The position numbers and the translations under genes are program-made. The notes under the pieces were generated by a model that was not told the origin of the DNA, ran no database searches, and worked only from the letters and a program-made list of their open reading frames with translations. Below are positions 427 through 63,843 of a stretch of 64,000 nucleotides of DNA, piece by piece; position 1 is the stretch's first letter; the number at the start of each line of letters is the position of its first letter. This DNA is from Octopus vulgaris (taxonomy: Eukaryota). The DNA is taken from assembly GCA_951406725.2 (NCBI GenBank), contig OX597839.1, positions 22,382,001 through 22,446,000 of the forward strand. The letters are read 5' to 3'.

Positions 427-779
427 AGCCGGGCAATACTGCTAGTATATATATAGATATATAATGTACCATTATCTACACACCTACACAAAATCTTCAA
501 TGGTGTCACCACACATACTACGGTACGAGCAGTCACACAGTTTCACTCAGTACACACCCCAAACACCATCATGCACACACCCACACAAGCACGTAATACC
601 TGAACACACACACATACACACACACACGCACACGCATAGACAAAGATAACTTTCGCCCACACTATTTCATCACAGACACACACATGCACACACCACTTGA
701 AAAAGCCCACATCAACTGCTACACACACACACACACACACTGATCAGACTCACTTGCTCCCATTCACACACACACATGC

Positions 780-1275: not shown

Positions 1276-2244
1276 ATTATATTAGGCATCTGTTTAGCAA
1301 TGTATCATCAAAAAGGAAAACAATTATTGTCATTAGATATGACAGAGGCTGTTAAAACACCTACAATGTATACATATATATATATATATATATAATATAT
1401 TAATAAATAAAATAAAACATATGCGTATATATAAACATATATGTACGTACCTACCTCTACATGTACATATACACGCATATATGAGTACAGGACACCAAAG
1501 GGACGTCGAACACAAAGAGAAACGAAAACATAGACACAAACCAAAGGAACTGGACATTTTTTAAAAACAACAAAAAAAATAGAGTACAGGACAATTAACA
1601 CAAAGAAAAAACCCCTTCTTCAGTCGCTAAGGTTTCATCTACTCTACGTTTCGAAGGATAAAAGCGAGATATATAGTATGTGTAGGAGGTTTGTGTGTGT
1701 GTGTTATTTCAATTTTGGTGATTCTTGTGTTTAATAGCAAATTCTCGAAGAAATCTAGAGAGAGAGAGAGAGAGAGTGTTAAATAATAATTCTGTTGCTG
1801 CCATTCAAACTTTGCTGTCTTTTAACTAAGCAAAACGGTTGGTGAAAGCAATAAGCCCCCCGCCCCGGTCACCATTTCTCAGAACCGATTCTCTGTCGGC
1901 AACCCGACACTGCAGCATTTGCTGTTAAGTAAAACAAAACACCGATTGTAATTCTTAGCTAAAACACTTGACATTTAAAGAAAGAAGTCTAGAATTTAGC
2001 AAGAGAAACTAAAAGACTTCCTGGAAAACAACAAACAAACAAAACAAATAAAAGATAACAAAATTAAGTTAATGAAGAAAAGAGAGAAAAAAATAAAGCA
2101 TTAATTAAGCATAAATTAATCATTTTAATAATATGATCTGATTGTTTTGCAAAGAGTAATGTGTTTTCAATTTAGAATTTAGTGTTTGGTCGTCTTTCTA
2201 GAATTACAGAATGATATCAGAGGATTTTCAGTTTTACCAATAAA

Positions 2245-2850
2245 ATGTCTTCTCTTTCAGTTTGTGTCTGACACCCAAGTCTCTCCCCCTCTCTCTCTGC
2301 CTCTTTCTCTCTCTGTGTCTCTTTCTCTCTCTCTCTGTCTCTTTCTCTCTCTCTGCCTCGTTCTCTCTCTCTCTGCCTCTTTCTCTCTCTCTCTCTTTCT
2401 CTGCCTCTTTCTCTCTCTCTGTCTCTTTCTCTCTCTCTGTCTCTTTCTCTCTGTGCCTGTGCCTCTTTCTCTCTCTCTGCCTCCTTCTCTCTCTCTCTGT
2501 CTCTTTCTCTCTCTGTCTCTCTCTCCTCCTCTCTCTGCCTCTTTCTCTCTCTCTCTGCCTCTTTCTCTCTCTCTCTCTCTCTCTCTGTCCTCTCTCTGCC
2601 TCACTCCCTCTATCTCTTCTCTCTCTTCTTCTCCCCCTCTCTTTCTCTTTGTCTCCATGTTCGTCTGTCTTTCTCTCTCTCTCTCTCTCTGCATGTCTAT
2701 CTCCTCTCTTTATCACTCTCTATCTCTCTCCCTCTATTCCTCTCTACCTGTCTCTTTCTTCCTTTCCCTCTATATCCATCTTTCTCCCTGTCTCTCTCTC
2801 TCTCTCGCCCTCTCTGTCAATCTGTCTGCCTCTCTCCCTCTCTATCTACC
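2245..2850. repeat. (CT)n-rich degenerate polypyrimidine tract
   Basis: direct reading; source of the spurious LSLSL/ERERE ORFs. Confidence 0.95.
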
Positions 2851-3319
2851 CCCACCCTTCATTTAATCAGGGTACATGCAACACAATAACAGCCTCTATT
2901 TAAGTGACACTAACTTTTGTCAAAAGCCAAATAATTATCAAATTTTGCATATTTTAAGTCCCATTAACCAATTAATTTGTCACATTCATCGTTAACCTGT
3001 TAAGGTGACTCTTACGCACTGACATTACCACAGACATTAATGAGTAAAGGTTGGGGCCTCTAAGTGGTCACCCGACTTGCTAGAAACCACAGCTAATCTT
3101 TTGCAAGTCATACCTGACAGTCTTTCTTTTTTAAAAAGAACACATTTAATAATGTAGTCCTAGATACACTGTTCTCAAGAAAAGGAAAACACTATATTGG
3201 ATATCTTCTTTATCAATCCTGATTTGACCATCACATCAGAATGACAACAGAAGTTGACATTAGTTTCATATTCTCTATCCCTGGAAACCGTTTGGGAATA
3301 GATTTAGGTATTTCCACCC

Positions 3320-3680
3320 CCTTTATTCTTTCACTTGTTTCTGTCATTGGACAGTGGCCATGCTGGAGCACCATTTTGAAGTGTTTATTTGAATAGTTTG
3401 CCCACAGTCTTTATTTGAAGTCTGGTATTTACTCTGTAAGTCTCTTTCTGTGAAACCTTTGAGTTATGAGGCTGTAAACAAACCAACACACACTGTCAAG
3501 CAGTTTTGAGACACACACACACACACACACACTCTCTCTCTCTCTCTCTCGCTCGCTGCCATACAGTTTTGTCCTAAAGCTTTAGTAAAAGACATTTGCG
3601 CCAAGTGCTGCCCAGTGGGACAGAACCTGAAACCATCTGAATTCAAAGTGAACTTCTTAATCATACAGTGATGCCTATGG
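3320..3680 (-). mobile_element. Degenerate CORE-type tRNA-derived SINE (family A)
   Basis: matches family A at both ends (ggccatgctggagcacc...; ccaagtgctgcccagtgggacagaacc). Confidence 0.7.
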
Positions 3681-3796
3681 TATTTCTTATTGGATTGACA
3701 TGGAGGGAGAGGCTGTGTCAGTTGCCTTCACAAAATTTCTGACACTGGTTACAATTAATGTTTGTTGTGAATATTTTAAATATTTTGCAAAGTGAA

Positions 3797-4550
3797 TAGG
3801 CATGGCTGTGTGGTAAGAAGCTTGCTTCCCAATCACATGGTTCCGGGTACAATCCCAATGCATGGCACCTTGAGCAAGGGTCTTCTACTATAGCTTCAGC
3901 CCAACCAAAGCCTTGTGAGTGGATTTGGTAGATGGAAACTGAAAGAAGCCCATTGTTTGTGTGTGTGTATATATATATATATATATACTTTTATTCTTTT
4001 ACTTGTTTCAGTCATTTGACCGTAGCCATACTGGAGCACCACCTTTAATCGAAGAAATCAATCCCACAACTTATTTTTCTTAAGCCCAGTACTTATTCTA
4101 TCAGTCTCTTTTGCTGAACCGCTAATTCATGGGGACATAAACACACCAGCATCGGTTGTCAATGATGGTGTGGTGAGTAGATACACACACACACTCACAT
4201 ATATGACAGGTTTCTTTCAGTTTCCATTTACCAAATCCACTCACAAGGCTTTGGTCGATCCAAGGCTGTAGTAGAAGCAAGGTGCCACACAGTGGGACTG
4301 AACCCAGCACCAACTGGTCAGGAATCAAGCTTCTTGCCACACAGCCATGCCTGCGACTAGATGTGTGTCTGTGTGTCTGTGTTTATCGTCCAGCACTGCT
4401 TGATAATCGGTTTGTTTACATCCCCATAACTTAGTGGTTTGACAAAAGAGATTGATGGAATAAGTGCCAGGTCTAAAAAGGAAAGTCCTTCAAGGTGGGT
4501 GCTCCAGCATGGCCGTAGTCCAGTGACTGAAACAAGGAAAAGATGAAAGA
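3797..4550. mobile_element. Family A SINE (+) split by a second family A SINE (-, ~3988-4355)
   Basis: 5' half 3797-3960 and 3' half 4370-4550 flank an inverted copy sitting in the central microsatellite. Confidence 0.75.
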
Positions 4551-4985
4551 AATCAATAACAACAAAAACATAGAGAAGGAGGGAAATTTTTAGGAGCCAA
4601 CATTCAAGAAGGACTGGGCTTAATGATTAGTATGGGATCTGGGGGTTGGTGGATAAGTGATGGGTGGGTTTGAAAGGGCTAAATGGAGGTCCTTAAATAG
4701 ACAACATACAAAATCGCTTTCACTTGATTAAGTTACGAAAGGACCCTAAATTCTAACTAATCCTAGTTTTGTCGCAACAACATGAACGGAAACTTCTATG
4801 TTGTCAATCGGCCTGCTGGAAATAGCAGTTAACTGTCCTTCTTGTCATGCTGTATCATCTTAAAGGGAAGAATTTATTAGATAATGTAGTTCTAAAGACA
4901 GGAGGGTCATGGCTGGAATGATCTAATTCATCAGGGTTGACCTTTGGCTAAAAAACAACAAAGAAATCTAAGTGCAATTTCAAAA

Positions 4986-5375
4986 GGTGCAGGAGTGGCT
5001 GTGTGGTAAGTAGCTTGCTTACCAACCACATGGTTCCAGGTTCAGTCCCACTGCATGGCACTTTGGGCAAGTGGCTTTTGTTATAGCCTCGGGCCGACCA
5101 AAAGCCTTGCGAGTGGATTTCGGAGATGGAAACCGAAGGAAGCCTGTCTTATATAAATATGTGTATATGTTTGTGTGTCTGTGTTTGTCCCCCACCACCA
5201 TCACTTGCTAACCCAATGTTGGTGTGTTTATGTCCTCATAACTTAGCGGTTTAGCAAAAGAGAGCGATAGATTAAGTACTAGGCTTACAAGGAATATGTC
5301 CTGGGGTTAGTTTGTTTGGCTAAAGGCAGTGCTCCAGCATGGCCATAATCAAATGACTGAAACAATTGAAAGAAT
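4986..5375 (+). mobile_element. Family A CORE-type SINE, near full length
   Basis: A box (tggctgtgtggtaag), B box (ggttcagtccc), CORE-like ctttgggcaagtg, tail tgactgaaaca. Confidence 0.85.
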
Positions 5376-5439
5376 AACTTATTTCTATTTTAATTAATTT
5401 CATCCACGAAAATCTTCCTCGGTGAAACTTGATTTTGAA

Positions 5440-6709: not shown

Positions 6710-6985
6710 ATCTTTTACTTGTGTCAGTCTTGTGGCACTGAGACCATACTGGAGCACTATCTTGAAGAACTCTACTTGAGCAAATCGACCCCAGAACTTA
6801 CAATTTCTTATTTTGTTAAGCTTGGTGCTTATTTTATTGATTCCTTTTGCCAAACTGCTATGTTACAGGAACACATCAACACAGATTGTCAAGCACTGGT
6901 GGGGACAGGTACACACACACACAAGTAATGGGGATGTAAACACACCAACATCGGTTGTCAAGTAATGGTTGGGGGACAAACACAG

Positions 6986-7026
<41 letters not shown>

Positions 7027-7193
7027 CATAGGCGCAGGAGTGGCTGTGTGGTAAGTAGCTTGCTTCCCAACCACATGGTTCTGGGTTCAGTCCCACTGTG
7101 TGGCACCTTGGGCAAATGTCTTCTACTATAGCCTCAGGCCAACCAAAGCCTTGTGAGTGGATTTGGTAGATGGAAACTGAAAGAAGCCCGTCG

Positions 7194-7568: not shown

Positions 7569-7803
7569 TATATACATGTATATATGCATTCATACGTGTA
7601 TACATGTATATATTCATATATATACGTGTATACATGCATATATATATATATGATGGGCTTCTTTCAGTTTCTGTCTACCAAATCCACTCAGAAGGCCTTG
7701 CTCGGCCCTAGGCTATAGTAGAAGATACATGCCCAAGGTATCGGACTGAACCTGGAACCATGTGGTTGGGAAGCAAGCTACTTACCACACAGCCACTCCT
7801 GTG
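6710..7803. mobile_element. Family A SINE cluster: full copy 7030-7440 (+) between minus-strand halves 6710-6990 and 7650-7803
   Basis: sequence identity to the other family A copies. Confidence 0.8.
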
Positions 7804-29430: not shown

Positions 29431-29732
29431 TTATATATATATATGTATATATATATGTATGTATGTATGTATGCATGTATATGTATGTATGTATGTATTT
29501 GTATATATGTATGTATATGTATATATATATATGTATGTATATATATATGTATGTATATATATATATGTATGTATATATATATATATGTATGTATATATAT
29601 ATATATGTATGTATATATATATGTATGTATGTATATATATATATATGTATGTATATATATATGTATGTATGTATATATATATATATGTATGTATATATAT
29701 ATGTATGTATGTATATATGTATGTATGTATAT

Positions 29733-29763
<31 letters not shown>

Positions 29764-30225
29764 TGTATATATATATATATGTATGTATATATATATATAT
29801 GTATGTATATATGTATATATGTATGTATATATGTATATATGTATGTATATGTATGTATGTATGTATGTATATATATATATATGTATGTATATATATATGT
29901 ATGTATATATGTATGTATGTATATATATATGTATGTATGTATATATATATATATGTATATATATATATGTATGTATATATATATGTATGTATGTATATAT
30001 ATATGTATGTATGTATATATATATGTATGTATGTATATATATATATATGTATGTATGTATATATATATATATGTATGTATGTATATATATATATATGTAT
30101 GTATGTATATATATATATATATGTATGTATATATATATATATATGTATGTATATATATATATATATGTATGTATATATATATATATGTATGTATATATAT
30201 ATATGTATGTATATATATATGTATG

Positions 30226-30256
<31 letters not shown>

Positions 30257-30577
30257 GTATGTATATATATATATATGTATGTATATATATATGTATGTAT
30301 ATATATATATATATGTATGTATATATGTATGTATGTATATATATATATATGTATGTATATATATATATATGTATGTATATATGTATGTATGTATATATAT
30401 ATATGTATGTATATATATATATGTATATATATATATGTATATATATATATGTATATATATATATGTATATATATATATGTATATATATATATGTATATAT
30501 ATATATGTATGTATATATATATATATGTATGTATATATATATGTATGTATGTATATATATGTATGTATGTATATATG

Positions 30578-30608
<31 letters not shown>

Positions 30609-30685
30609 GTATGTATGTATGTATATATATATATATATGTATGTATATATATATATATGTATGTATGTATGTATGTATATGTATG

Positions 30686-30719
<34 letters not shown>

Positions 30720-30745
30720 TATATATGTATATATATATGTATGTG

Positions 30746-30778
<33 letters not shown>

Positions 30779-30969
30779 GTATATATATATATATGTATGT
30801 ATATATATATGTATGTATGTATATATATATATGTATGTATATATATATGTATGTATATATATATGTATGTATATATATATATATGTATGTATATATATAT
30901 ATATGTATGTATATATATATGTATGTATATATATATATGTATGTATATATATATGTATGTATGTATATA

Positions 30970-31002
<33 letters not shown>

Positions 31003-31019
31003 ATGTATGTATATGTATG

Positions 31020-31053
<34 letters not shown>

Positions 31054-31077
31054 TGTATGTATATATATATGTATGTG

Positions 31078-31110
<33 letters not shown>

Positions 31111-31157
31111 GTATATATATGTATGTATATATGTATGTATGTATGTATATATGTATG

Positions 31158-31196
<39 letters not shown>

Positions 31197-31217
31197 GTAT
31201 ATATATGTATGTATATG

Positions 31218-31304
<87 letters not shown>

Positions 31305-31325
31305 GTAAGTATATATATGTATGTA

Positions 31326-31361
<36 letters not shown>

Positions 31362-31443
31362 TGTATATATGTATGTATGTATGTATATATGTATGTATAT
31401 ATGTATGTATGTATGTATATATATGTATGTATGTATGTATGTA

Positions 31444-31476
<33 letters not shown>

Positions 31477-31513
31477 ATATGTATGTATGTATGTATATAT
31501 GTATGTATGTATG

Positions 31514-31547
<34 letters not shown>

Positions 31548-31637
31548 TGTATGTATATATATGTATGTATGTATGTATATATATATGTATGTATGTATAT
31601 ATGTATATATATATATGTATGTATGTATATATGTATG

Positions 31638-31671
<34 letters not shown>

Positions 31672-31777
31672 TATATGTATATATGTATGTATGTATGTAT
31701 GTATATATGTATGTATATATGTATGTATGTATATATGTATGTATGTATATATGTATGTATGTATATATGTATGTATG

Positions 31778-31811
<34 letters not shown>

Positions 31812-31833
31812 TGTATGTATGTATGTATGTATG

Positions 31834-31867
<34 letters not shown>

Positions 31868-32207
31868 TATATGTATGTATGTATGTATATATGTATATAT
31901 GTATATATATATGTATGTATGTATATATATATGTATGTATGTATATATATATGTATGTATATATATATGTATGTATATATATATGTATGTATGTGTATAT
32001 ATGTATGTATGTGTATATATGTATGTATGTATATATATGTATGTATGTATGTATATATATATGTATGTATGTATATATATGTATGTATGTATGTATATAT
32101 ATATGTATGTATGTATATATATATATGTATGTATGTATATATGTATGTATGTATGTATGTATATATGTATGTATGTATGTATGTATATATGTATGTATGT
32201 ATGTATG

Positions 32208-32241
<34 letters not shown>

Positions 32242-32311
32242 TATATGTATGTATGTATATATGTATGTATATATGTATGTATATATGTATGTATGTATAT
32301 ATGTATGTATG

Positions 32312-32345
<34 letters not shown>

Positions 32346-32379
32346 TATATATATATGTATGTATGTATATATATGTATG

Positions 32380-32410
<31 letters not shown>

Positions 32411-32875
32411 ATATGTATGTATGTATATATGTATGTATATATGTATGTATGTATGTATATATGTATGTTTGTATGTATGTATATGTATGTATGTATATAT
32501 ATATATATGTATGTATGTATATATATATGTATATATATATGTATGTATATATATATGTATGTATATATATATGTATGTATATATATATGTATGTATATAT
32601 ATATGTATGTATGTATATATGTATGTATGTATATATGTATGTATGTATATGTATGTATGTATATGTATGTATGTATATGTATGTATGTATATATATATGT
32701 ATGTATATATGTATGTATGTATATATGTATGTATGTATATATGTATGTATGTATATATATATGTATGTATGTATATATATATGTATGTATATATGTATGT
32801 ATATATATATATATGTATGTATATATATATGTATGTATATATATATATATGTATGTATATATATATGTATGTATG

Positions 32876-32938
<63 letters not shown>

Positions 32939-33039
32939 ATATGTATGTATGTATATATGTATGTATATATGTATGTATGTATATATGTATGTATATATGT
33001 ATGTATGTATATATGTATGTATGTATATATGTATGTATG

Positions 33040-33073
<34 letters not shown>

Positions 33074-33950
33074 TGTATGTATATATGTATGTATGTATAT
33101 ATGTATGTATGTATATATGTATGTATGTATATATGTATGTATATATATATGTATGTATATATATATATGTATGTATATATGTATGTATATATATATATGT
33201 ATGTATATATATATATGTATATATGTATGTATGTATATATGTATGTATGTATATATGTATGTATATATATATGTATGTATGTATGTATGTATATATGTAT
33301 GTATGTATGTATGTATATATGTATGTATGTATGTATATATGTATGTATGTATGTATGTATATATGTATGTATGTATATATGTATGTATATATGTATGTAT
33401 GTATATATGTATGTATGTATATATGTATGTATATATGTATGTATGTATATATATATGTATGTATGTATATATATGTATGTCTTTCACCATGTGCTTCTGC
33501 TAACACCAGCCGTTTTTTTCTCTATCTCCGTTGCCCGCTCCGGGATCTTTCTTTCCTCTCTCTTCCTTCTTTATGTTTCCGACGAAGAGCTCCGCTCGAA
33601 ACGTCATACCTTCCTGCTTCCATTTCCTGAGCGCCTATTAATAATAATACTGTAATTGTTCCCTTGTTGTTGTTTTTTTGTTTCCCGTTTGGATTAAAAA
33701 TATGTATATATATATGTATATATGTATGTATGTATATATATATGTATATATATATGTATGTATGTATATATGTATATATATATGTATGTATGTATATATG
33801 TATGTATATATGTATGTATGTATATATGTATGTATGTATATATATATGTATGTATGTATATATGTATGTATGTATATATGTATGTATGTATATATATATG
33901 TATGTATGTATGTATATATATATGTATGTATGTATGTATATATATATGTA

Positions 33951-33986
<36 letters not shown>

Positions 33987-34355
33987 TGTATGTATATATA
34001 TTTATGTATGTATGTATATATATTTATGTATTGTATGTATGTATGTATGTATCTATGTATGTATGTATGTATATATATTTATGTATGTATGTATATATAT
34101 ATGTATGTATGTATATATATTTATGTATGTATGTATATATATTTATGTATGTATATATATGTATGTACGTATATATATTTATGTATGTATGTATATATAT
34201 ATGTATGTATATATATATATGTATATATATATGTATGTATATATATATGTATATATATATATGTATGTATATATATATGTATATATATATGTATATATAT
34301 ATTTATGTATATATGTATGTATGTATATATATATGTATATATATATGTATGTATG

Positions 34356-34389
<34 letters not shown>

Positions 34390-34487
34390 TGTATGTATGT
34401 ATGTATGTATGTATGTATATATGTATGTATATATGTATGTATATATGTATGTATGTATATATGTATGTATGTATATATATATGTATG

Positions 34488-34518
<31 letters not shown>

Positions 34519-34940
34519 ATATATATATGTATGTATGTATATAATGTATGTATGTACGTATGTATATATATATGTACGTATGTATGTATATATGTACGTA
34601 TGTATGTATATATGTATGTATATATATATGTATGTATATATATATGTACGTATGTATGTATATATGTATGTATATATATATGTATGTATGTATATATGTA
34701 TGTATGTATATATGTATGTATGTATGTATATAATGTATGTATGTATGTATGCATGTATGTATGTATGCATGTATGTATATATGCATGTATGTATATATGT
34801 ATGTATGTATATATGTATGTATGTATGTATATGTGTATATATGTATGTATGTATATGTATGTATGTATATGTGTATATATGTATGTATGTATATGTATTA
34901 TGTATATATATATATATATGTATGTATATATATATGTATG

Positions 34941-35025
<85 letters not shown>

Positions 35026-35086
35026 ATATATATGTATGTATATATATATATGTATGTATATATATATATGTATGTATGTATATATA

Positions 35087-35122
<36 letters not shown>

Positions 35123-35166
35123 TGTATGTATGTATATATGTATGTATGTATATATATATGTATGTA

Positions 35167-35231
<65 letters not shown>

Positions 35232-35268
35232 ATATGTATGTATGTATATATGTATGTATGTATATATG

Positions 35269-35300
<32 letters not shown>

Positions 35301-35400
35301 TGTATGTATGTATATATGTATGTATGTATATATGTATGTATGTATGTATATATGTATATATGTATGTATGTATATGTATGTATGTATATATGTATGTATG

Positions 35401-35462
<62 letters not shown>

Positions 35463-35512
35463 TATATGTATGTATGTATGTATATATGTATATATATATA
35501 TATGTATGTATG

Positions 35513-35552
<40 letters not shown>

Positions 35553-35652
35553 TGTATGTATATATATATGTATGTATATATATATGTATGTATGTATATA
35601 TATATGTATATATATATGTATATATATATGTATGTATGTATATATATATGTA

Positions 35653-35685
<33 letters not shown>

Positions 35686-35730
35686 ATATATATGTATGTA
35701 TATATATATGTATGTATATATGTATGTATG

Positions 35731-35764
<34 letters not shown>

Positions 35765-35774
35765 TGTATGTATG

Positions 35775-35810
<36 letters not shown>

Positions 35811-35966
35811 TGTATGTATGTATGTATGTATGTATGTATGTATGTATGTATGTATGTATGTATGTATGTATGTATGTATGTATGTATGTATGTATGTATG
35901 TATGTATGTATGTATGTATGTATGTATGTATGTATATATGTATGTATATATATGTATGTATGTATA

Positions 35967-35999
<33 letters not shown>

Positions 36000-36076
36000 A
36001 TATATATGTATGTATGTATATATGTATGTATATATGTATATATGTATGTATATATGTATGTATATATGTATGTATG

Positions 36077-36110
<34 letters not shown>

Positions 36111-36218
36111 TGTATGTATGTATATATATATGTATGTATGTATATGTATGTATGTATATGTATGTATGTATATGTATGTATGTATGTATATGTATGTATG
36201 TATGTATATGTATGTATG

Positions 36219-36257
<39 letters not shown>

Positions 36258-36788
36258 GTGTATATATATGTATGTGTATATATATGTATGTATGTGTATA
36301 TATATGTATGTATGTATATATATATGTATGTATGTATGTATGTATATATGTATGTATATATGTATATATATTTATGTATGTATGTATATATGTATATATA
36401 TTTATGTATATATGTATATATATTTATGTATGTATGTATATATGTATGTATGTATATATATATGTATGTATGTATATATGTATGTATGTATGTATATATG
36501 TATGTATGTATATATGTATGTATGTATATATGTATGTATGTATATATGTATGTATATATGTATGTATATATGTATGTATATATGTATGTATATGTATGTA
36601 TGTGTATGTATGTATATATGTATGTATGTATATATGTATGTATGTATATATGTATGTATGTATATATGTATGTATGTATATATGTATGTATATATGTATG
36701 TATATATGTATGTATGTATGTATATATGTATGTATGTATATATGTATGTATGTATATATGTATGTATGTATATATGTATGTATGTATG

Positions 36789-36822
<34 letters not shown>

Positions 36823-37038
36823 TGTATGTATATATGTATGTATGTATGTATATATGTATATATATATATATGTATGTATGTATATATATATGTATGTATA
36901 TATATATGTATGTATATATATATGTATGTATGTATATATATATGTATATATATATGTATATATATATGTATGTATGTATATATATATGTATATATATATG
37001 TATGTATGTATGTATGTATATATATATATGTATGTATG

Positions 37039-37072
<34 letters not shown>

Positions 37073-37170
37073 TGTATGTATGTATGTATGTATGTATGTA
37101 TGTATGTATGTATGTATATATGTATGTATGTATATATGTATGTATGTATGTATATATGTATGTATGTATG

Positions 37171-37203
<33 letters not shown>

Positions 37204-37350
37204 ATATGTATGTATGTATATATATATGTATGTATATATATATGTATGTATGTATATATATGTATGTATGTATATATATGTATGTATGTATATATATATG
37301 TATGTATGTATATATGTATGTATATATATATATGTATGTATGTATGTATG

Positions 37351-37384
<34 letters not shown>

Positions 37385-37410
37385 TGTATGTATGTATATA
37401 TGTATGTATG

Positions 37411-37444
<34 letters not shown>

Positions 37445-37556
37445 TGTATGTATGTATGTATGTATGTATATATATGTATGTATGTATGTATATGTATGTA
37501 TGTATATGTATGTATGTATATGTATGTATGTATGTATATGTATGTATGTATATATG

Positions 37557-37595
<39 letters not shown>

Positions 37596-37936
37596 GTGTA
37601 TATATATGTATGTATGTGTATATATATGTATGTATGTATATATATATATGTATGTATGTATATATATATGTATGTATGTATATATATATATGTATGTATG
37701 TATGTATGTATATATGTATGTATATATGTATATATATTTATGTATGTATGTATATATGTATATATATTTATGTATGTATGTATATATGTATATATATTTA
37801 TGTATGTATGTATATATATATGTATGTATGTATATATATTTATGTATGTATGTATATATATATATATGTATGTATGTATATATGTATATATATATGTATG
37901 TATGTATGTATGTATATATATATGTATTTATGTATG

Positions 37937-37970
<34 letters not shown>

Positions 37971-38240
37971 TGTATATATGTATGTATATATGTATGTATA
38001 TATATATGTATGTATATATGTATGTATGTATGTATATATATATATATGTATGTATGTATATATATATGTATGTATGTATATATGTATGTATATATGTATG
38101 TATATATATATGTATGTATGTATATATGTATGTATATATATATGTATGTATGTATATATATATGTATGTATGTATATATATATGTATGTATGTATATATG
38201 TATGTATGTATGTATATGTATGTATGTATGTATGTATGTA

Positions 38241-38273
<33 letters not shown>

Positions 38274-38436
38274 ATATATATATGTATATATGTATGTATG
38301 TATGTATATATGTATGTATGTATGTATATATGTATGTATGTATGTATATATGTATGTATGTATGTATGTATATATATATGTATTTATGTATATATATATG
38401 TATGTATGTATATATATATGTATGTATGTATATATG

Positions 38437-38468
<32 letters not shown>

Positions 38469-38578
38469 TGTATGTATGTATATATGTATGTATGTATATA
38501 TATATGTATGTATGTATATATATATGTATGTATGTATATATATATGTATGTATATATATATATGTATGTATGTATGTG

Positions 38579-38610
<32 letters not shown>

Positions 38611-38702
38611 TGTATGTATGTATATATGTATGTATGTATGTATGTATATATATGTATGTATGTATGTATGTATATGTATGTATATATGTATGTATGTATA
38701 TG

Positions 38703-38755
<53 letters not shown>

Positions 38756-38972
38756 GTGTATATATATGTATGTATGTGTATATATATGTATGTATGTATA
38801 TATATATGTATGTATGTATATATATATATGTATGTATATATATATGTATGTATGTATGTATATATGTATGTATATATGTATATATATTTATGTATGTATG
38901 TATATATGTATATATATTTATGTATGTATGTATATATATATGTATGTATGTATATATATTTATGTATGTATG

Positions 38973-39003
<31 letters not shown>

Positions 39004-39100
39004 ATATGTATGTATATATATATGTATATATATATGTATGTATATATCTATATATATATGTATGTATGTATGTATGTATATATATATGTATTTATGTATG

Positions 39101-39134
<34 letters not shown>

Positions 39135-39458
39135 TGTATGTATATATGTATGTATATATGTATGTATGTATATATGTATGTATGTATATATGTATGTATG
39201 TATATATGTATGTATGTATGTATATATGTATGTATGTATATATATATGTATGTATGTATATATATATGTATGTATGTATGTATATATATATGTATGTATG
39301 TATATATGTATGTATATATATATGTATGTATATATATATGTATGTATATATGTATATATATATGTATGTATGTATATATGTATGTATATATATATGTATG
39401 TATGTATATATATATGTATATATATGTATGTATGTATGTATGTATATATGTATGTATG

Positions 39459-39491
<33 letters not shown>

Positions 39492-39528
39492 GTATATATA
39501 TATGTATGTATGTATGTATATATGTATG

Positions 39529-39559
<31 letters not shown>

Positions 39560-39656
39560 ATATATGTATGTATGTATGTATATATATATATGTATGTATG
39601 TATATATATATGTATGTATGTATATATATATGTATGTATGTATATATGTATGTATG

Positions 39657-39687
<31 letters not shown>

Positions 39688-39816
39688 GTATGTATGTATA
39701 TATATATGTATGTATGTATATATATATGTATGTATGTATATATATGTATGTATGTATATATATGTATGTATGTATATATATATGTATGTATGTATATATG
39801 TATGTATATATATATG

Positions 39817-60665: not shown

Positions 60666-61458
60666 CTGTAAAAGAAGTTCAAATAGAAATTATAATACGT
60701 GTGTCTATGTCTAGCTGACTCTCTGTCCACGTGTCACCATTTCCAACTCCAGACTAAACATTTGGCTAAAAGACTTTCAGACGATAGCAACTTCTCCTTC
60801 CTTATCTTGATTCAATAACCAGATGAACCATTATAAAGCTGGAATCCCCAAGTGATAACAATAGATTTCTCCAAAACTCTTGGGTTATAGGCACAGGCAT
60901 GGCTGTGTGGTAAGAAGTTTGCTTCCCAACCACATGGTTCTGGGTTCGGTCCCACTGTGTGGCACCTTAGGCAAGGGTCTTCTACTACAGCACCAGTCCA
61001 ACCAAAGTTTTGAGAGTGGATTTGCAAGACAGAAATAATAATAATAATATAGCAGAGCAAAGTGAATAGCAGATACTTTTCTTTGGAAAATATTTCTGTT
61101 TGGGGTTTTCAGTAAATGTTGTGTTGTGGACCTCATGCCTCTCTAGTGAATGTTACTGAACATTGTATGTAGAATTTCTTGTAGTATAGCATAATAAAAC
61201 CTCCAGTAAATGCTGTGTTGTGGCTCTCATGCCACCGATTCTCTCTCACTGATCATTTTCCCAGATATTTCAAACAGTTCAAGATTTTGAATTTATTCCC
61301 AATTTAAGTTGTGCACCCTAAGACTGGGAACTGTTGATTCTAAAATCATCCTTTACTCCACTGTATTACCTAAAGTGTGTGTGTGTGTGTGTGTGTGGAA
61401 ATAAGGAGAGAGGAAAGAAAATATTGGTAATTAAAGACGGAAACATATTGAGACTTAC

Positions 61459-61512
61459 CTTGAGTGATAAGGAAGGTGAAAACCTTTCAACATTTATTTC
61501 ATCAAGAAGGGC
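61459..61512 (-). CDS. RAP1GAP: Rap1GAP-like gene, first coding exon visible in window (ALLDEINVERFSPSLSLK); gene continues upstream
   Basis: tttcAG acceptor, GTAAGT donor, 54 nt, phase 0/0; resembles the Rap1GAP segment preceding the catalytic domain (V[D/E]RFxP). Confidence 0.85.
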
Positions 61513-61555
61513 CTGAAATAAACAAACAGATACTAGAGTCATGTAATATATATAT

Positions 61556-61757
61556 AAAGGGAAAGTTTATGAAATAAACAAAAGACGAAGGCAGGTGGAG
61601 TACAAACAAACAAATGTATTAGTATAGCGCTCAGGAATAGAAATAGAACAAGTCTTTTACGTTTCGAGCCTACGCTCTTCAACAGAAAGATACACAGAAA
61701 AAAAACAAGGAGAGAAAAAAATGCGTGTAGGAGCTAACGATCTATCATGGCGTCCTG
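61556..61757 (-). mobile_element. Short element with minimal hammerhead-like motif, flanked by (TA)n
   Basis: see motif at 61653-61690; homologous to 780-935 and 33481-33700. Confidence 0.7.
61653..61690 (-). ncRNA. Putative minimal type I hammerhead ribozyme (A6U core variant)
   Basis: UCUUU-CUGUUGA-A-GAGC-guag-GCUC-GAAA-CG-UA-AAAGA: stem I 5 bp, stem II 4 bp, palindromic stem III stub. Confidence 0.6.
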
Positions 61758-61770
61758 ATATATATGTGTG

Positions 61771-61809
<39 letters not shown>

Positions 61810-62118
61810 CACACACACATACATGAGGGGGTGCTTTGGGTAAAAGAATAGACAAGAGGATCAGTTAATTATGATTTTATTGAACATATTGCCTTCTCAA
61901 ATTCACACGCTTATTGCAGTGGTCCTTTAGTTTTTCAAAGCTCACTGAAAGAACTTGAAAGGCCGGGTCTCCAACCAGGCCTTTTGTGGCACCCTTAAAG
62001 CCCCAAACTTTCTAGCCCCCATCATGTATCTATTTATCTTTCTGTCTGTCTATCAATCTAATATATATATATAAAAATGTTGTTGTTTAACCCCCAAGTC
62101 AGTTCAGCTTCCATAGAC

Positions 62119-63182: not shown

Positions 63183-63436
63183 ACAATGCAAGAAAGTTTG
63201 AAGCAAAATACAAACGAGAAGACAGAACAACGTTGCAGCTTTATTCTGTATTTCTATATTTTGTGGGGGATGACCCCTTTCTTCAGGACATTCGGAAAAG
63301 TGGTGGCTGGAAAAAACTTGCTGCTCTTCCACCACTAATTTTCTAAATGTCCTGAAGAGAGGGTCTTCATCCTGAAATACAAAATAAAGCTGCAACGTTG
63401 TTCTGTCTTCTTTTCGTTTGTATCTTCTTGCATTGT
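63183..63436. repeat. Long imperfect palindrome (fold-back element)
   Basis: arms ~63183-63291 and ~63345-63436 are reverse complements. Confidence 0.85.
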
Positions 63437-63449
63437 GTGTGTGTGTATA

Positions 63450-63843
63450 TAGTGGCTGTGTGGTAAGTAGCTTGCCTACCAACCACACGGTTCCGGGTTC
63501 AGTCCCACTGTGTGGCACTTTGGGCAAGTGTCTTCTACAATAGCCTTGGGCCAACCAAAGCCTTGTGAGTGGATTTGGTAGACGGAAACTGAAAGAAGCC
63601 TGTCGTATATATGTATATATATATATATGCGTGTTTGTGTGTCTGTGTTTGTCCCCCTAGCATTGCTTGACAACCGATGCTGGTGTGTTTACGTCCCTGT
63701 AACTTAGCGGTTCGGCAAAAAGAGACCGATAAAATAAGTACTAGGCTTATAAAGAATAAGACCTGGGGTCGATTTGATCGACTAAAGGCGGTGCTCCAGT
63801 ATGGCTGCAGTCAAATGACTCAAACAGGTAAAAGAGAAAGAGA
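63450..63843 (+). mobile_element. Family A SINE, near full length
   Basis: identity to the other copies. Confidence 0.88.

What the first reader, a model, noticed from the sequence alone, without database searches (positions are those of the whole stretch)
61556..61757. Microsatellite-embedded short element family with a variant minimal hammerhead ribozyme
The minus strand reads stem I UCUUU / core CUGUUGA / A / stem II GAGC-guag-GCUC / GAAA / CG / UA / AAAGA. This is the architecture of minimal type I hammerheads known from Penelope-like element pLTRs and retrozymes, which use a palindromic stem III and can act as dimers. The normally conserved A6 is U here, and the same CTGTTGA appears in the copy at ~829, so it is a family-level variant. 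All three copies (780-935, 33481-33700, this one) abut TA-type microsatellites and encode no protein. Inference: a non-autonomous retrozyme-like family that targets (TA)n. This copy is sense to the Rap1GAP pre-mRNA, ~140 nt upstream of an acceptor.
Basis: partly seen in the sequence, partly recalled or inferred. Interest (0 to 1): 0.7.

Follow-up and report, generated by a model that had tools for sequence, protein, structure and literature searches.

The report
Penelope retrotransposon tail with A6U hammerhead
This stretch is the cut-off tail of a protein-coding Penelope-type jumping gene, and its whole lineage of about 16,000 or more copies carries a hammerhead RNA motif with U in place of a normally essential A while the rest of the motif stays unchanged, so the motif likely cuts only weakly and is likely kept for another or a protein-assisted job.

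Summary
The motif is real (minus strand 61690-61653), but it does not mark a non-autonomous retrozyme. The 202 bases are the 5'-truncated 3' end (pLTR) of an autonomous Neptune-type Penelope-like element: longer copies run into an RT + CxxxxCxxC + GIY-YIG frame, and two loci are pLTR-ORF-pLTR. Copies end at a fixed 3' point in (TA)n (52 of 57). U6 is lineage-wide: 15,954 exact U6 cores against 184 A6 and 430 C/G. It is already in the oldest subfamily, while positions 7 and 17 change between subfamilies. The shared 'CTGTTGA' is partly coincidence: the nearest relatives read CTGTCGA. The 33.5-kb copy is another, very young family with A6 and U4C and an intact 949-aa ORF. Minimal hammerheads in Neptune pLTRs are published. 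I found no paper on a fixed A6U, but could not read the main catalogue (Lünse 2017). The scan noted A6U Penelope hammerheads in three unchecked notes from other genomes. Cleavage is untested; a cut-site junction test was inconclusive.

The parts
61556..61757 (-). 5'-truncated 3' end (pLTR) of a Neptune-type Penelope-like element, lineage A; 5' junction at 61757, family 3' end at 61556
   Evidence: 96-98% identical to the 39 best other copies; fixed 3' end and ragged 5' ends; full-length relatives L096 and L101
61653..61690 (-). Minimal type I hammerhead motif with U6: stem I 61690-61686 with 61657-61653; core C3-A9 61685-61679 (U6 = 61682); extra A 61678; stem II 61677-61666; GAAA 61665-61662; palindromic ACGU; predicted cut after 61658
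   Evidence: sequence; pair and core counts; genome counts
61546..61555 (.). (TA)n target at the element's 3' end
   Evidence: 52 of 57 related loci end in a TA-type repeat
61758..61824 (.). (TA)n/(CA)n microsatellite at the 5' junction
61460..61512 (-). Exon of the host Rap-GAP-domain gene; its acceptor lies about 43 nt downstream of the element end and about 145 nt downstream of the predicted cut
   Evidence: neighbouring exons match PF02145
780..936 (+). Old subfamily copy of the same lineage A: U6 core at 829-835, 17-nt deletion removing most of stem II, GAAA and the cut site
33481..33700 (+). 3' end of a different, very young Neptune-type family (lineage B): core CCGACGA (U4C, A6 kept), U-U mismatch in stem I; parent has an intact 949-aa ORF in 6.2-kb tandem units

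Best explanation
The stretch is the 5'-truncated tail of a protein-coding Neptune-type Penelope-like retrotransposon sitting in a (TA)n repeat, and its hammerhead motif carries a lineage-wide A6U change, so the motif likely cuts slowly at best and is likely retained as a weakened, protein- or dimer-assisted ribozyme fold. Shown: element anatomy, the linked RT/GIY-YIG frame, the (TA)n ends, fixation of U6, and slower change of the motif than of its flank. Inferred: the element's GIY-YIG nicks (TA)n; RT starts at the fixed 3' end about 100 nt downstream of the predicted cut, copies through the motif and stops after 202 nt. Selection acts on the few master copies, where two motifs flank the ORF in one transcript and could pair through ACGU; it does not act on stubs like this one, which decay. 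Confidence is about 0.95 for the element's identity and about 0.5 for the weakened-ribozyme reading.
For: Anatomy: tblastn with the lineage B protein hit 8 of 30 loci and 1 of 30. Of 11 widened loci, chosen mostly for those hits, 8 have ORF pieces upstream of a motif-bearing end on the same strand. L096 and L101 are pLTR-ORF-pLTR with U6 in both repeats. The L096 C-terminal frame matches RVT_1 and GIY-YIG weakly (E 0.0017, 0.0051; below Pfam cut-offs) and shows YIDD, CSRPRCRTC and IIYCI..YIGQT. U6 fixation: 15,954 T, 184 A, 430 C/G at position 6; 20 A6 copies are scattered over the subfamilies of a 92-row tree. Old subfamily picked by its 3' flank only: T6 in 22 of 29 rows. Old against young consensus, both picked without the core: 2 of 36 motif columns differ (both near-ties at CpG sites) against 24 of 90 downstream, Fisher p=0.007. 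The positions that change between subfamilies are 7 and 17, which hammerheads leave free (established knowledge). Stem I pair 4 is C-G in lineage A (41 of 48) and G-C in lineage B (16 of 21), a compensatory change. Literature: an Anolis PLE hammerhead cut only with its protein and was not needed for insertion in vitro (PMC11167929, passages); single CUGA-turn mutants had low activity (PMC9901934, passages); a natural A6C hammerhead had low but detectable activity (PMC3088659, section 8).
Against: No cleavage was measured. The genomic cut-site test did not separate U6 from A6 lineages: by hand count from the listings, 27 junctions near the cut against 14 in an upstream control window for lineage A and about 45 against 21 for lineage B, Fisher p=0.83. 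The windows are not matched for microhomology or CpG decay. Loop II (GUAG) is also unchanged across lineage A (37 of 48), which catalysis alone would not require and which fits a protein-binding or other non-catalytic constraint equally well. Only one stem pair covaries; stem II is invariant. The predicted minimum-energy fold of the monomer pairs the core with GAAACG rather than leaving it open. The seven-subfamily comparison (3 of 36 against 65 of 124) is inflated because six groups were picked with a pattern that fixes many core bases. No lineage A copy with an unbroken ORF was seen among the four examined. Neptune was not told from Nematis by a tree.
Confidence: 0.6

Rival explanations
1. 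The U6 motif no longer cuts. It is kept as a structural or sequence signal (RT/RNP binding, template positioning or promoter part of the pLTR).
For: Loop II and all stem bases are as fixed as the catalytic bases. CUGA-turn mutants had low activity and were not rescued by second mutations (PMC9901934). Cleavage was dispensable for insertion in vitro (PMC11167929). The youngest family in the window also has a weakened motif (U4C, U-U in stem I). Two lineage B rows have G17. No sharp pile-up of 5' junctions at the cut.
Against: The subfamily-level changes fall on positions 7 and 17, while C3, G5, G8, A9, G12-A14 and the A15.1-U16.1 pair stay fixed between the unbiased old and young sets. That is the pattern expected of a catalytic core.
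Confidence: 0.3
2. U6 is a fully tolerated natural variant: in this context (extra A after A9, dimeric stem III) the ribozyme cuts at biologically normal rates.
For: Long retention across at least seven subfamilies. Both lineages show a similar, roughly twofold excess of junctions near the cut. Unchecked scan notes report the same CUGUCGA core in Penelope families of other genomes.
Against: Mutagenesis and the natural A6C case show low activity. Even canonical minimal PLE hammerheads cleave poorly in vitro (PMC4209133, parts 1-2 of 4 read). The twofold excess can be explained by TA microhomology.
Confidence: 0.12
3. One reading: a non-autonomous, retrozyme-like short element family that targets (TA)n.
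For: Most copies are short and non-coding, and lie in (TA)n.
Against: No fixed 5' end and no motif-to-motif unit repeats among the loci read. Continuous homology into an RT/GIY-YIG frame, and two pLTR-ORF-pLTR loci.
Confidence: 0.03
4. The motif is a neutral relic: it was inactivated by A6U long ago and persists only by descent.
For: A single lineage, so one mutation explains all U6 copies; parts of the downstream flank are also well kept.
Against: The motif changes significantly more slowly than its downstream flank between old and young subfamilies (2 of 36 against 24 of 90, p=0.007).
Confidence: 0.05

Closest known systems
Minimal hammerheads (min-HHR) in pLTRs of metazoan Penelope-like elements, including Neptune (Cervera and De la Pena 2014, PMC4209133; parts 1-2 of 4 read; supplements searched for six terms, file 1 not searchable)
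   Same: Type I order, 4-5 bp stem I, one extra base between A9 and G10.1, G10.1-C11.1 pair, palindromic 15.2-16.2 without loop III, position in both pLTRs, mostly single truncated copies genome-wide
   Different: Core reads CUGUNGA instead of CUGANGA; the core change named in the text read is U3-A8. Stem II is 4 bp rather than 7-8 bp as in Schistosoma.
Neptune/Nematis EN+ Penelope-like elements (Craig et al. 2021, PMC8557442; passages read, supplement searched for five terms)
   Same: Single ORF with DKG, RT, CX2-5CxxC linker and C-terminal GIY-YIG; partial tandem pLTRs; adjacent inverted truncated copy (L101); microsatellite bias
   Different: Clade not fixed by phylogeny here; non-canonical hammerhead core in the dominant lineage
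Natural A6C hammerhead of phage Bcep176 (Perreault et al. 2011, PMC3088659; section 8 and passages read)
   Same: Natural substitution at position 6
   Different: One phage sequence with C6 and kobs below 0.1 per min, against U6 fixed in about 16,000 or more retroelement copies
Metazoan non-LTR retrozymes (PMC7229834, search listing only; bioRxiv 10.64898/2026.07.22.740005, part 1 of 5 read)
   Same: Type I hammerhead, non-coding short copies, link to PLE pLTRs
   Different: Retrozymes are tandem unit-length repeats with a hammerhead in each unit; these are ragged 5'-truncated tails of a coding element
Poseidon element PAc of Anolis (PMC11167929; passages read)
   Same: pLTR hammerhead in an EN+ PLE; AT-rich target
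   Different: PAc cleavage was shown, protein-assisted, and its motif overlaps the ORF start; here the motif lies far upstream of the ATG and cleavage is untested

Membership tests
EN+ Penelope-like element (Neptune/Nematis type) | Single ORF with PLE-type RT followed by C-terminal GIY-YIG | tested here: met
   L096, L101 (frameshifted or partly deleted) and intact L056 ORF; RVT_1 and GIY-YIG hits are weak, below Pfam cut-offs; 810 homologues at E<=0.001 among 7993 scored
EN+ Penelope-like element (Neptune/Nematis type) | CX2-5CxxC linker between RT and endonuclease | tested here: met
   CSRPRCRTC in L096/L101, CSRSRCNTC in L056; feature taken from PMC8557442
EN+ Penelope-like element (Neptune/Nematis type) | Partial tandem: direct pLTRs on both sides of the ORF, each with a hammerhead motif | tested here: met
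   L096 motifs at 7578 and 3194, L101 at 2229 and 6562; L056 period 6.2 kb
EN+ Penelope-like element (Neptune/Nematis type) | Insertion bias for microsatellites, 5' truncation | tested here: met
   52 of 57 loci end in a TA-type repeat; variable 5' ends
Neptune clade (as opposed to Nematis) | Placement in an RT phylogeny with reference elements | not tested
   No named reference proteins were obtained (one search gave almost no names)
Minimal type I hammerhead of PLEs | Stems I and II, extra base 9/10.1, G10.1-C11.1, GAAA, palindromic stem III, NUH triplet | tested here: met
   stem I pairs 1-4 formed in 43-48 of 48 lineage A rows (pairs 1-2 partly fixed by the search pattern)
Minimal type I hammerhead of PLEs | Conserved core CUGANGA (A6) | tested here: not met
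   T at position 6 in 15,954 of 16,568 exact matches
Minimal type I hammerhead of PLEs | Covariation in stems | tested here: inconclusive
   One compensatory pair (stem I pair 4, C-G against G-C) between two lineages; stem II invariant and fixed by the pattern
Minimal type I hammerhead of PLEs | Self-cleavage (dimer or protein-assisted) | not testable with these tools
   No raw reads offered; genomic junction test inconclusive
Non-LTR retrozyme | Non-coding unit-length tandem repeats, one hammerhead per unit, no ORF of its own | tested here: not met
   Copies are tails of a coding element with ragged 5' ends

The most novel reading that the evidence does not exclude
CUGUNGA is a recurrent natural class of hammerhead core in Penelope elements. 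It still cleaves in its native setting, as a dimer or with the element's own protein making up for the lost A6 contact, and so works as a protein-gated ribozyme that has been under selection through at least seven subfamily turnovers.
Probability: 0.25. Interest if true: 0.65.

Novelty: new variant of a known kind. Interest (0 to 1): 0.4.

Why it matters
What hammerheads do in Penelope elements is open: one in vitro study found cutting protein-dependent and dispensable for insertion. This genome offers a natural comparison. Sister lineages with nearly the same motif differ at core positions (U6 in about 16,000 or more copies; C4 or a canonical core in the other lineage), and lineage B has an intact, very young ORF that could be expressed. 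Testing the three cores side by side would show whether catalysis or only the fold is selected. Standard CUGANGA descriptors and Rfam miss this lineage, so hammerhead censuses undercount it. The single intronic stub itself is ordinary.

Tried and rejected
Rfam scans: the whole window gave 498 hits, of which the 150 listed were microRNA models on microsatellites; the 202 bases gave no hammerhead. Idea that A6 copies are the active source: rejected as the main reading, because A6 (184) lies between C6 and G6 (87 and 13 of the first 100 of 430; hand count) and the 20 sampled A6 copies are scattered in the tree. A small A6 subgroup within the G7 subfamily (6 of 20) is not excluded. Folding z-scores were weak (-0.55 to -1.87). 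My dimer energy model was not a valid hammerhead topology and is not used. Sequencing runs: no RNA holder listed, only RNA-guessed contigs, which cannot show ends or circles. L244, fetched as a possible full-length copy, had no ORF hit. Cut-site junction pile-up: inconclusive. Lünse et al. 2017 (PMC5785218) is not held, so I saw only its title in reference lists; it may already list position-6 variants. Searches for print: 'hammerhead + A6U' (2 listed, neither on this by title or abstract), 'CUGUNGA', 'CUGUCGA' (6 listed, none on Penelope elements by title or abstract), 'octopus + Penelope + Neptune' and 'cephalopod' (only PMC8557442), supplement look-ups (no motif match, but figure alignments and one file were not searchable).

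Full report
Observation. Rfam has no model that scores it. The element spans 61757-61556 between microsatellites, sense to a Rap-GAP-domain gene (exons located; PF02145 at E 4.7e-13 and 8.3e-16). The acceptor about 43 nt downstream is used: contigs of 4 of 4 RNA-guessed runs join this exon to the next, and in 3 of 3 they stop at 61513 with the same loose end. These runs are contigs and only guessed to be RNA.

The family. The genome has 2.8 Gb in 227 contigs; I guessed a cephalopod from memory, and no call names it. A DNA search found 923 candidates; the 40 scored were 96-100% identical. Copies share one 3' end followed by (TA)n (52 of 57 loci after removing the window copy and two duplicate loci) and begin at many different 5' points. 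That is the footprint of target-primed reverse transcription (established knowledge).

The parent. [quoted passage not shown] With that protein as query, 8 of 30 loci and 1 of 30 showed related coding DNA. Of 11 widened loci, chosen mostly for those hits, 8 had it upstream on the same strand. L096 and L101 are complete pLTR-ORF-pLTR structures of the window copy's lineage, with U6 in both repeats and broken frames. By the features listed in PMC8557442 (passages) this is an EN+ Penelope-like element of the Neptune/Nematis type; I did not resolve the clade by a tree. The finding is therefore a truncated tail of an autonomous element, not a retrozyme.

The three window copies. In a 92-row tree (bootstrap not fully settled) the 33.5-kb copy falls in lineage B (22 rows, 100/100; long branch), with core CCGACGA. 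The 0.8-kb copy is an old lineage A member with a 17-nt deletion. The 61.6-kb copy belongs to a young lineage A subfamily whose usual core is CUGUCGA (45 of 57), so its U7 is likely CpG decay.

Position 6. Exact genome counts with an otherwise fixed 26-base pattern gave T 15,954, A 184 and C/G 430, with 0 control matches. These are lower bounds on copy number; a looser pattern covering both lineages gave 30,422. Twenty A6 copies were spread over the subfamilies, mostly carrying the position-7 base of their neighbours, as expected of decay after insertion; a small A6 subgroup is not excluded. In 69 copies taken in order along contig C1, lineage A (48) had T6 in 46, position 7 T19/A14/C11/G4 and position 17 A37/T8/C2/G1; lineage B (21) had A6 in 20 and C4 in 13. 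That sample was picked with a pattern that fixes stem II and GAAACGT, so I added two sets picked without the core. An old subfamily found by its 3' flank had T6 in 22 of 29 rows, several of them truncated. A young set found by upstream sequence had T6 in 28 of 30. Their consensuses differ at 2 of 36 motif columns, both near-ties at CpG sites, and at 24 of 90 downstream columns (Fisher p=0.007). The motif, U6 included, has thus been held more tightly than its flank for the life of the lineage. Covariation is thin: one compensatory pair in stem I between lineages.

Does it cut? Not shown. Published data point to low activity: CUGA-turn single mutants were low in a deep mutational scan (PMC9901934, passages); a natural A6C hammerhead gave under 0.1 per min (PMC3088659, section 8); canonical minimal PLE hammerheads cleaved weakly and only as dimers or trimers (PMC4209133); an Anolis PLE hammerhead cut only with its protein and was not needed for insertion in vitro (PMC11167929). 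Prompted by earlier scan notes, I looked for genomic copies that begin at the cut site. By hand count, after dropping indel variants and segmental duplicates, lineage A had 27 such junctions among 100 listed of 101 matches against 14 of 15 in an upstream control window. Lineage B had about 45 among 100 listed of 106 against 21 of 27. Nine of 30 fetched lineage A loci were true junctions and 21 were indel variants. The ratios do not differ (p=0.83), and TA microhomology favours the test window, so the test neither shows nor excludes cutting. It does show that copies starting at the cut are rare beside the thousands that read through the motif: templates were mostly uncut at the 3' motif, or had been rejoined.

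Mechanism. Most likely the element's endonuclease nicks (TA)n, and RT copies from the fixed 3' end through the motif and stops early, leaving stubs like this one (inferred). In master copies two motifs flank the ORF. The fixed catalytic positions and free positions 7 and 17 suggest a still-selected but weakened ribozyme (about 0.5), with a purely structural role the main rival (about 0.3). This lone intronic stub has no partner motif and is unlikely to affect the host transcript (inferred).

Novelty. Minimal hammerheads in Neptune pLTRs are known since 2014. I found no paper describing a fixed A6U core, but the main catalogue of PLE hammerhead variants (Lünse et al. 2017) was not available, and figure alignments in supplements could not be searched. 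Three unchecked notes of this scan report the same CUGUCGA core in Penelope families of other genomes, so the variant may be recurrent; I did not test them. Verdict: new variant of a known kind, interest 0.4.

Noticed in passing
window 33481-33700; L056 (G000:C4:91752500-91761500) 1910-4756: Very young Neptune-type family: the 40 best copies are listed as 100% identical, with 6.2-kb tandem units and an intact 949-aa RT/GIY-YIG ORF. Its hammerhead has U4C and a U-U mismatch in stem I. A good candidate for an active element and for biochemistry.
   Followed up: partly
L056 about 5190-5400 and 6900-7080: The long CA-rich 3' region of the young family holds two short GC-rich islands of unknown role.
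   Followed up: no
L164, L167 (G000:C1, near 3.09 and 3.25 Mb): An old lineage B subgroup has G at position 17, which hammerheads normally do not cleave after (recalled).
   Followed up: no
L101 1350-2360; L161; L179; L140: Inverted pairs of truncated pLTR copies forming palindromes, as described for Penelope insertions.
   Followed up: no
L111 about 490-530 (minus): A different hammerhead-like motif with canonical CUGAUGA, a 6-bp stem II and a 5-bp stem I, matched by my descriptor; probably another Penelope family.
   Followed up: no
window about 29500-39800: About 10 kb of TA/TGTA-type microsatellite-like array that encloses the 33.5-kb copy, inside the Rap-GAP gene region.
   Followed up: no
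window about 60885-60990 and 63430-63820: Other very high-copy repeats (deep cover in laid contigs), unrelated to the finding; likely a common SINE-like family.
   Followed up: no
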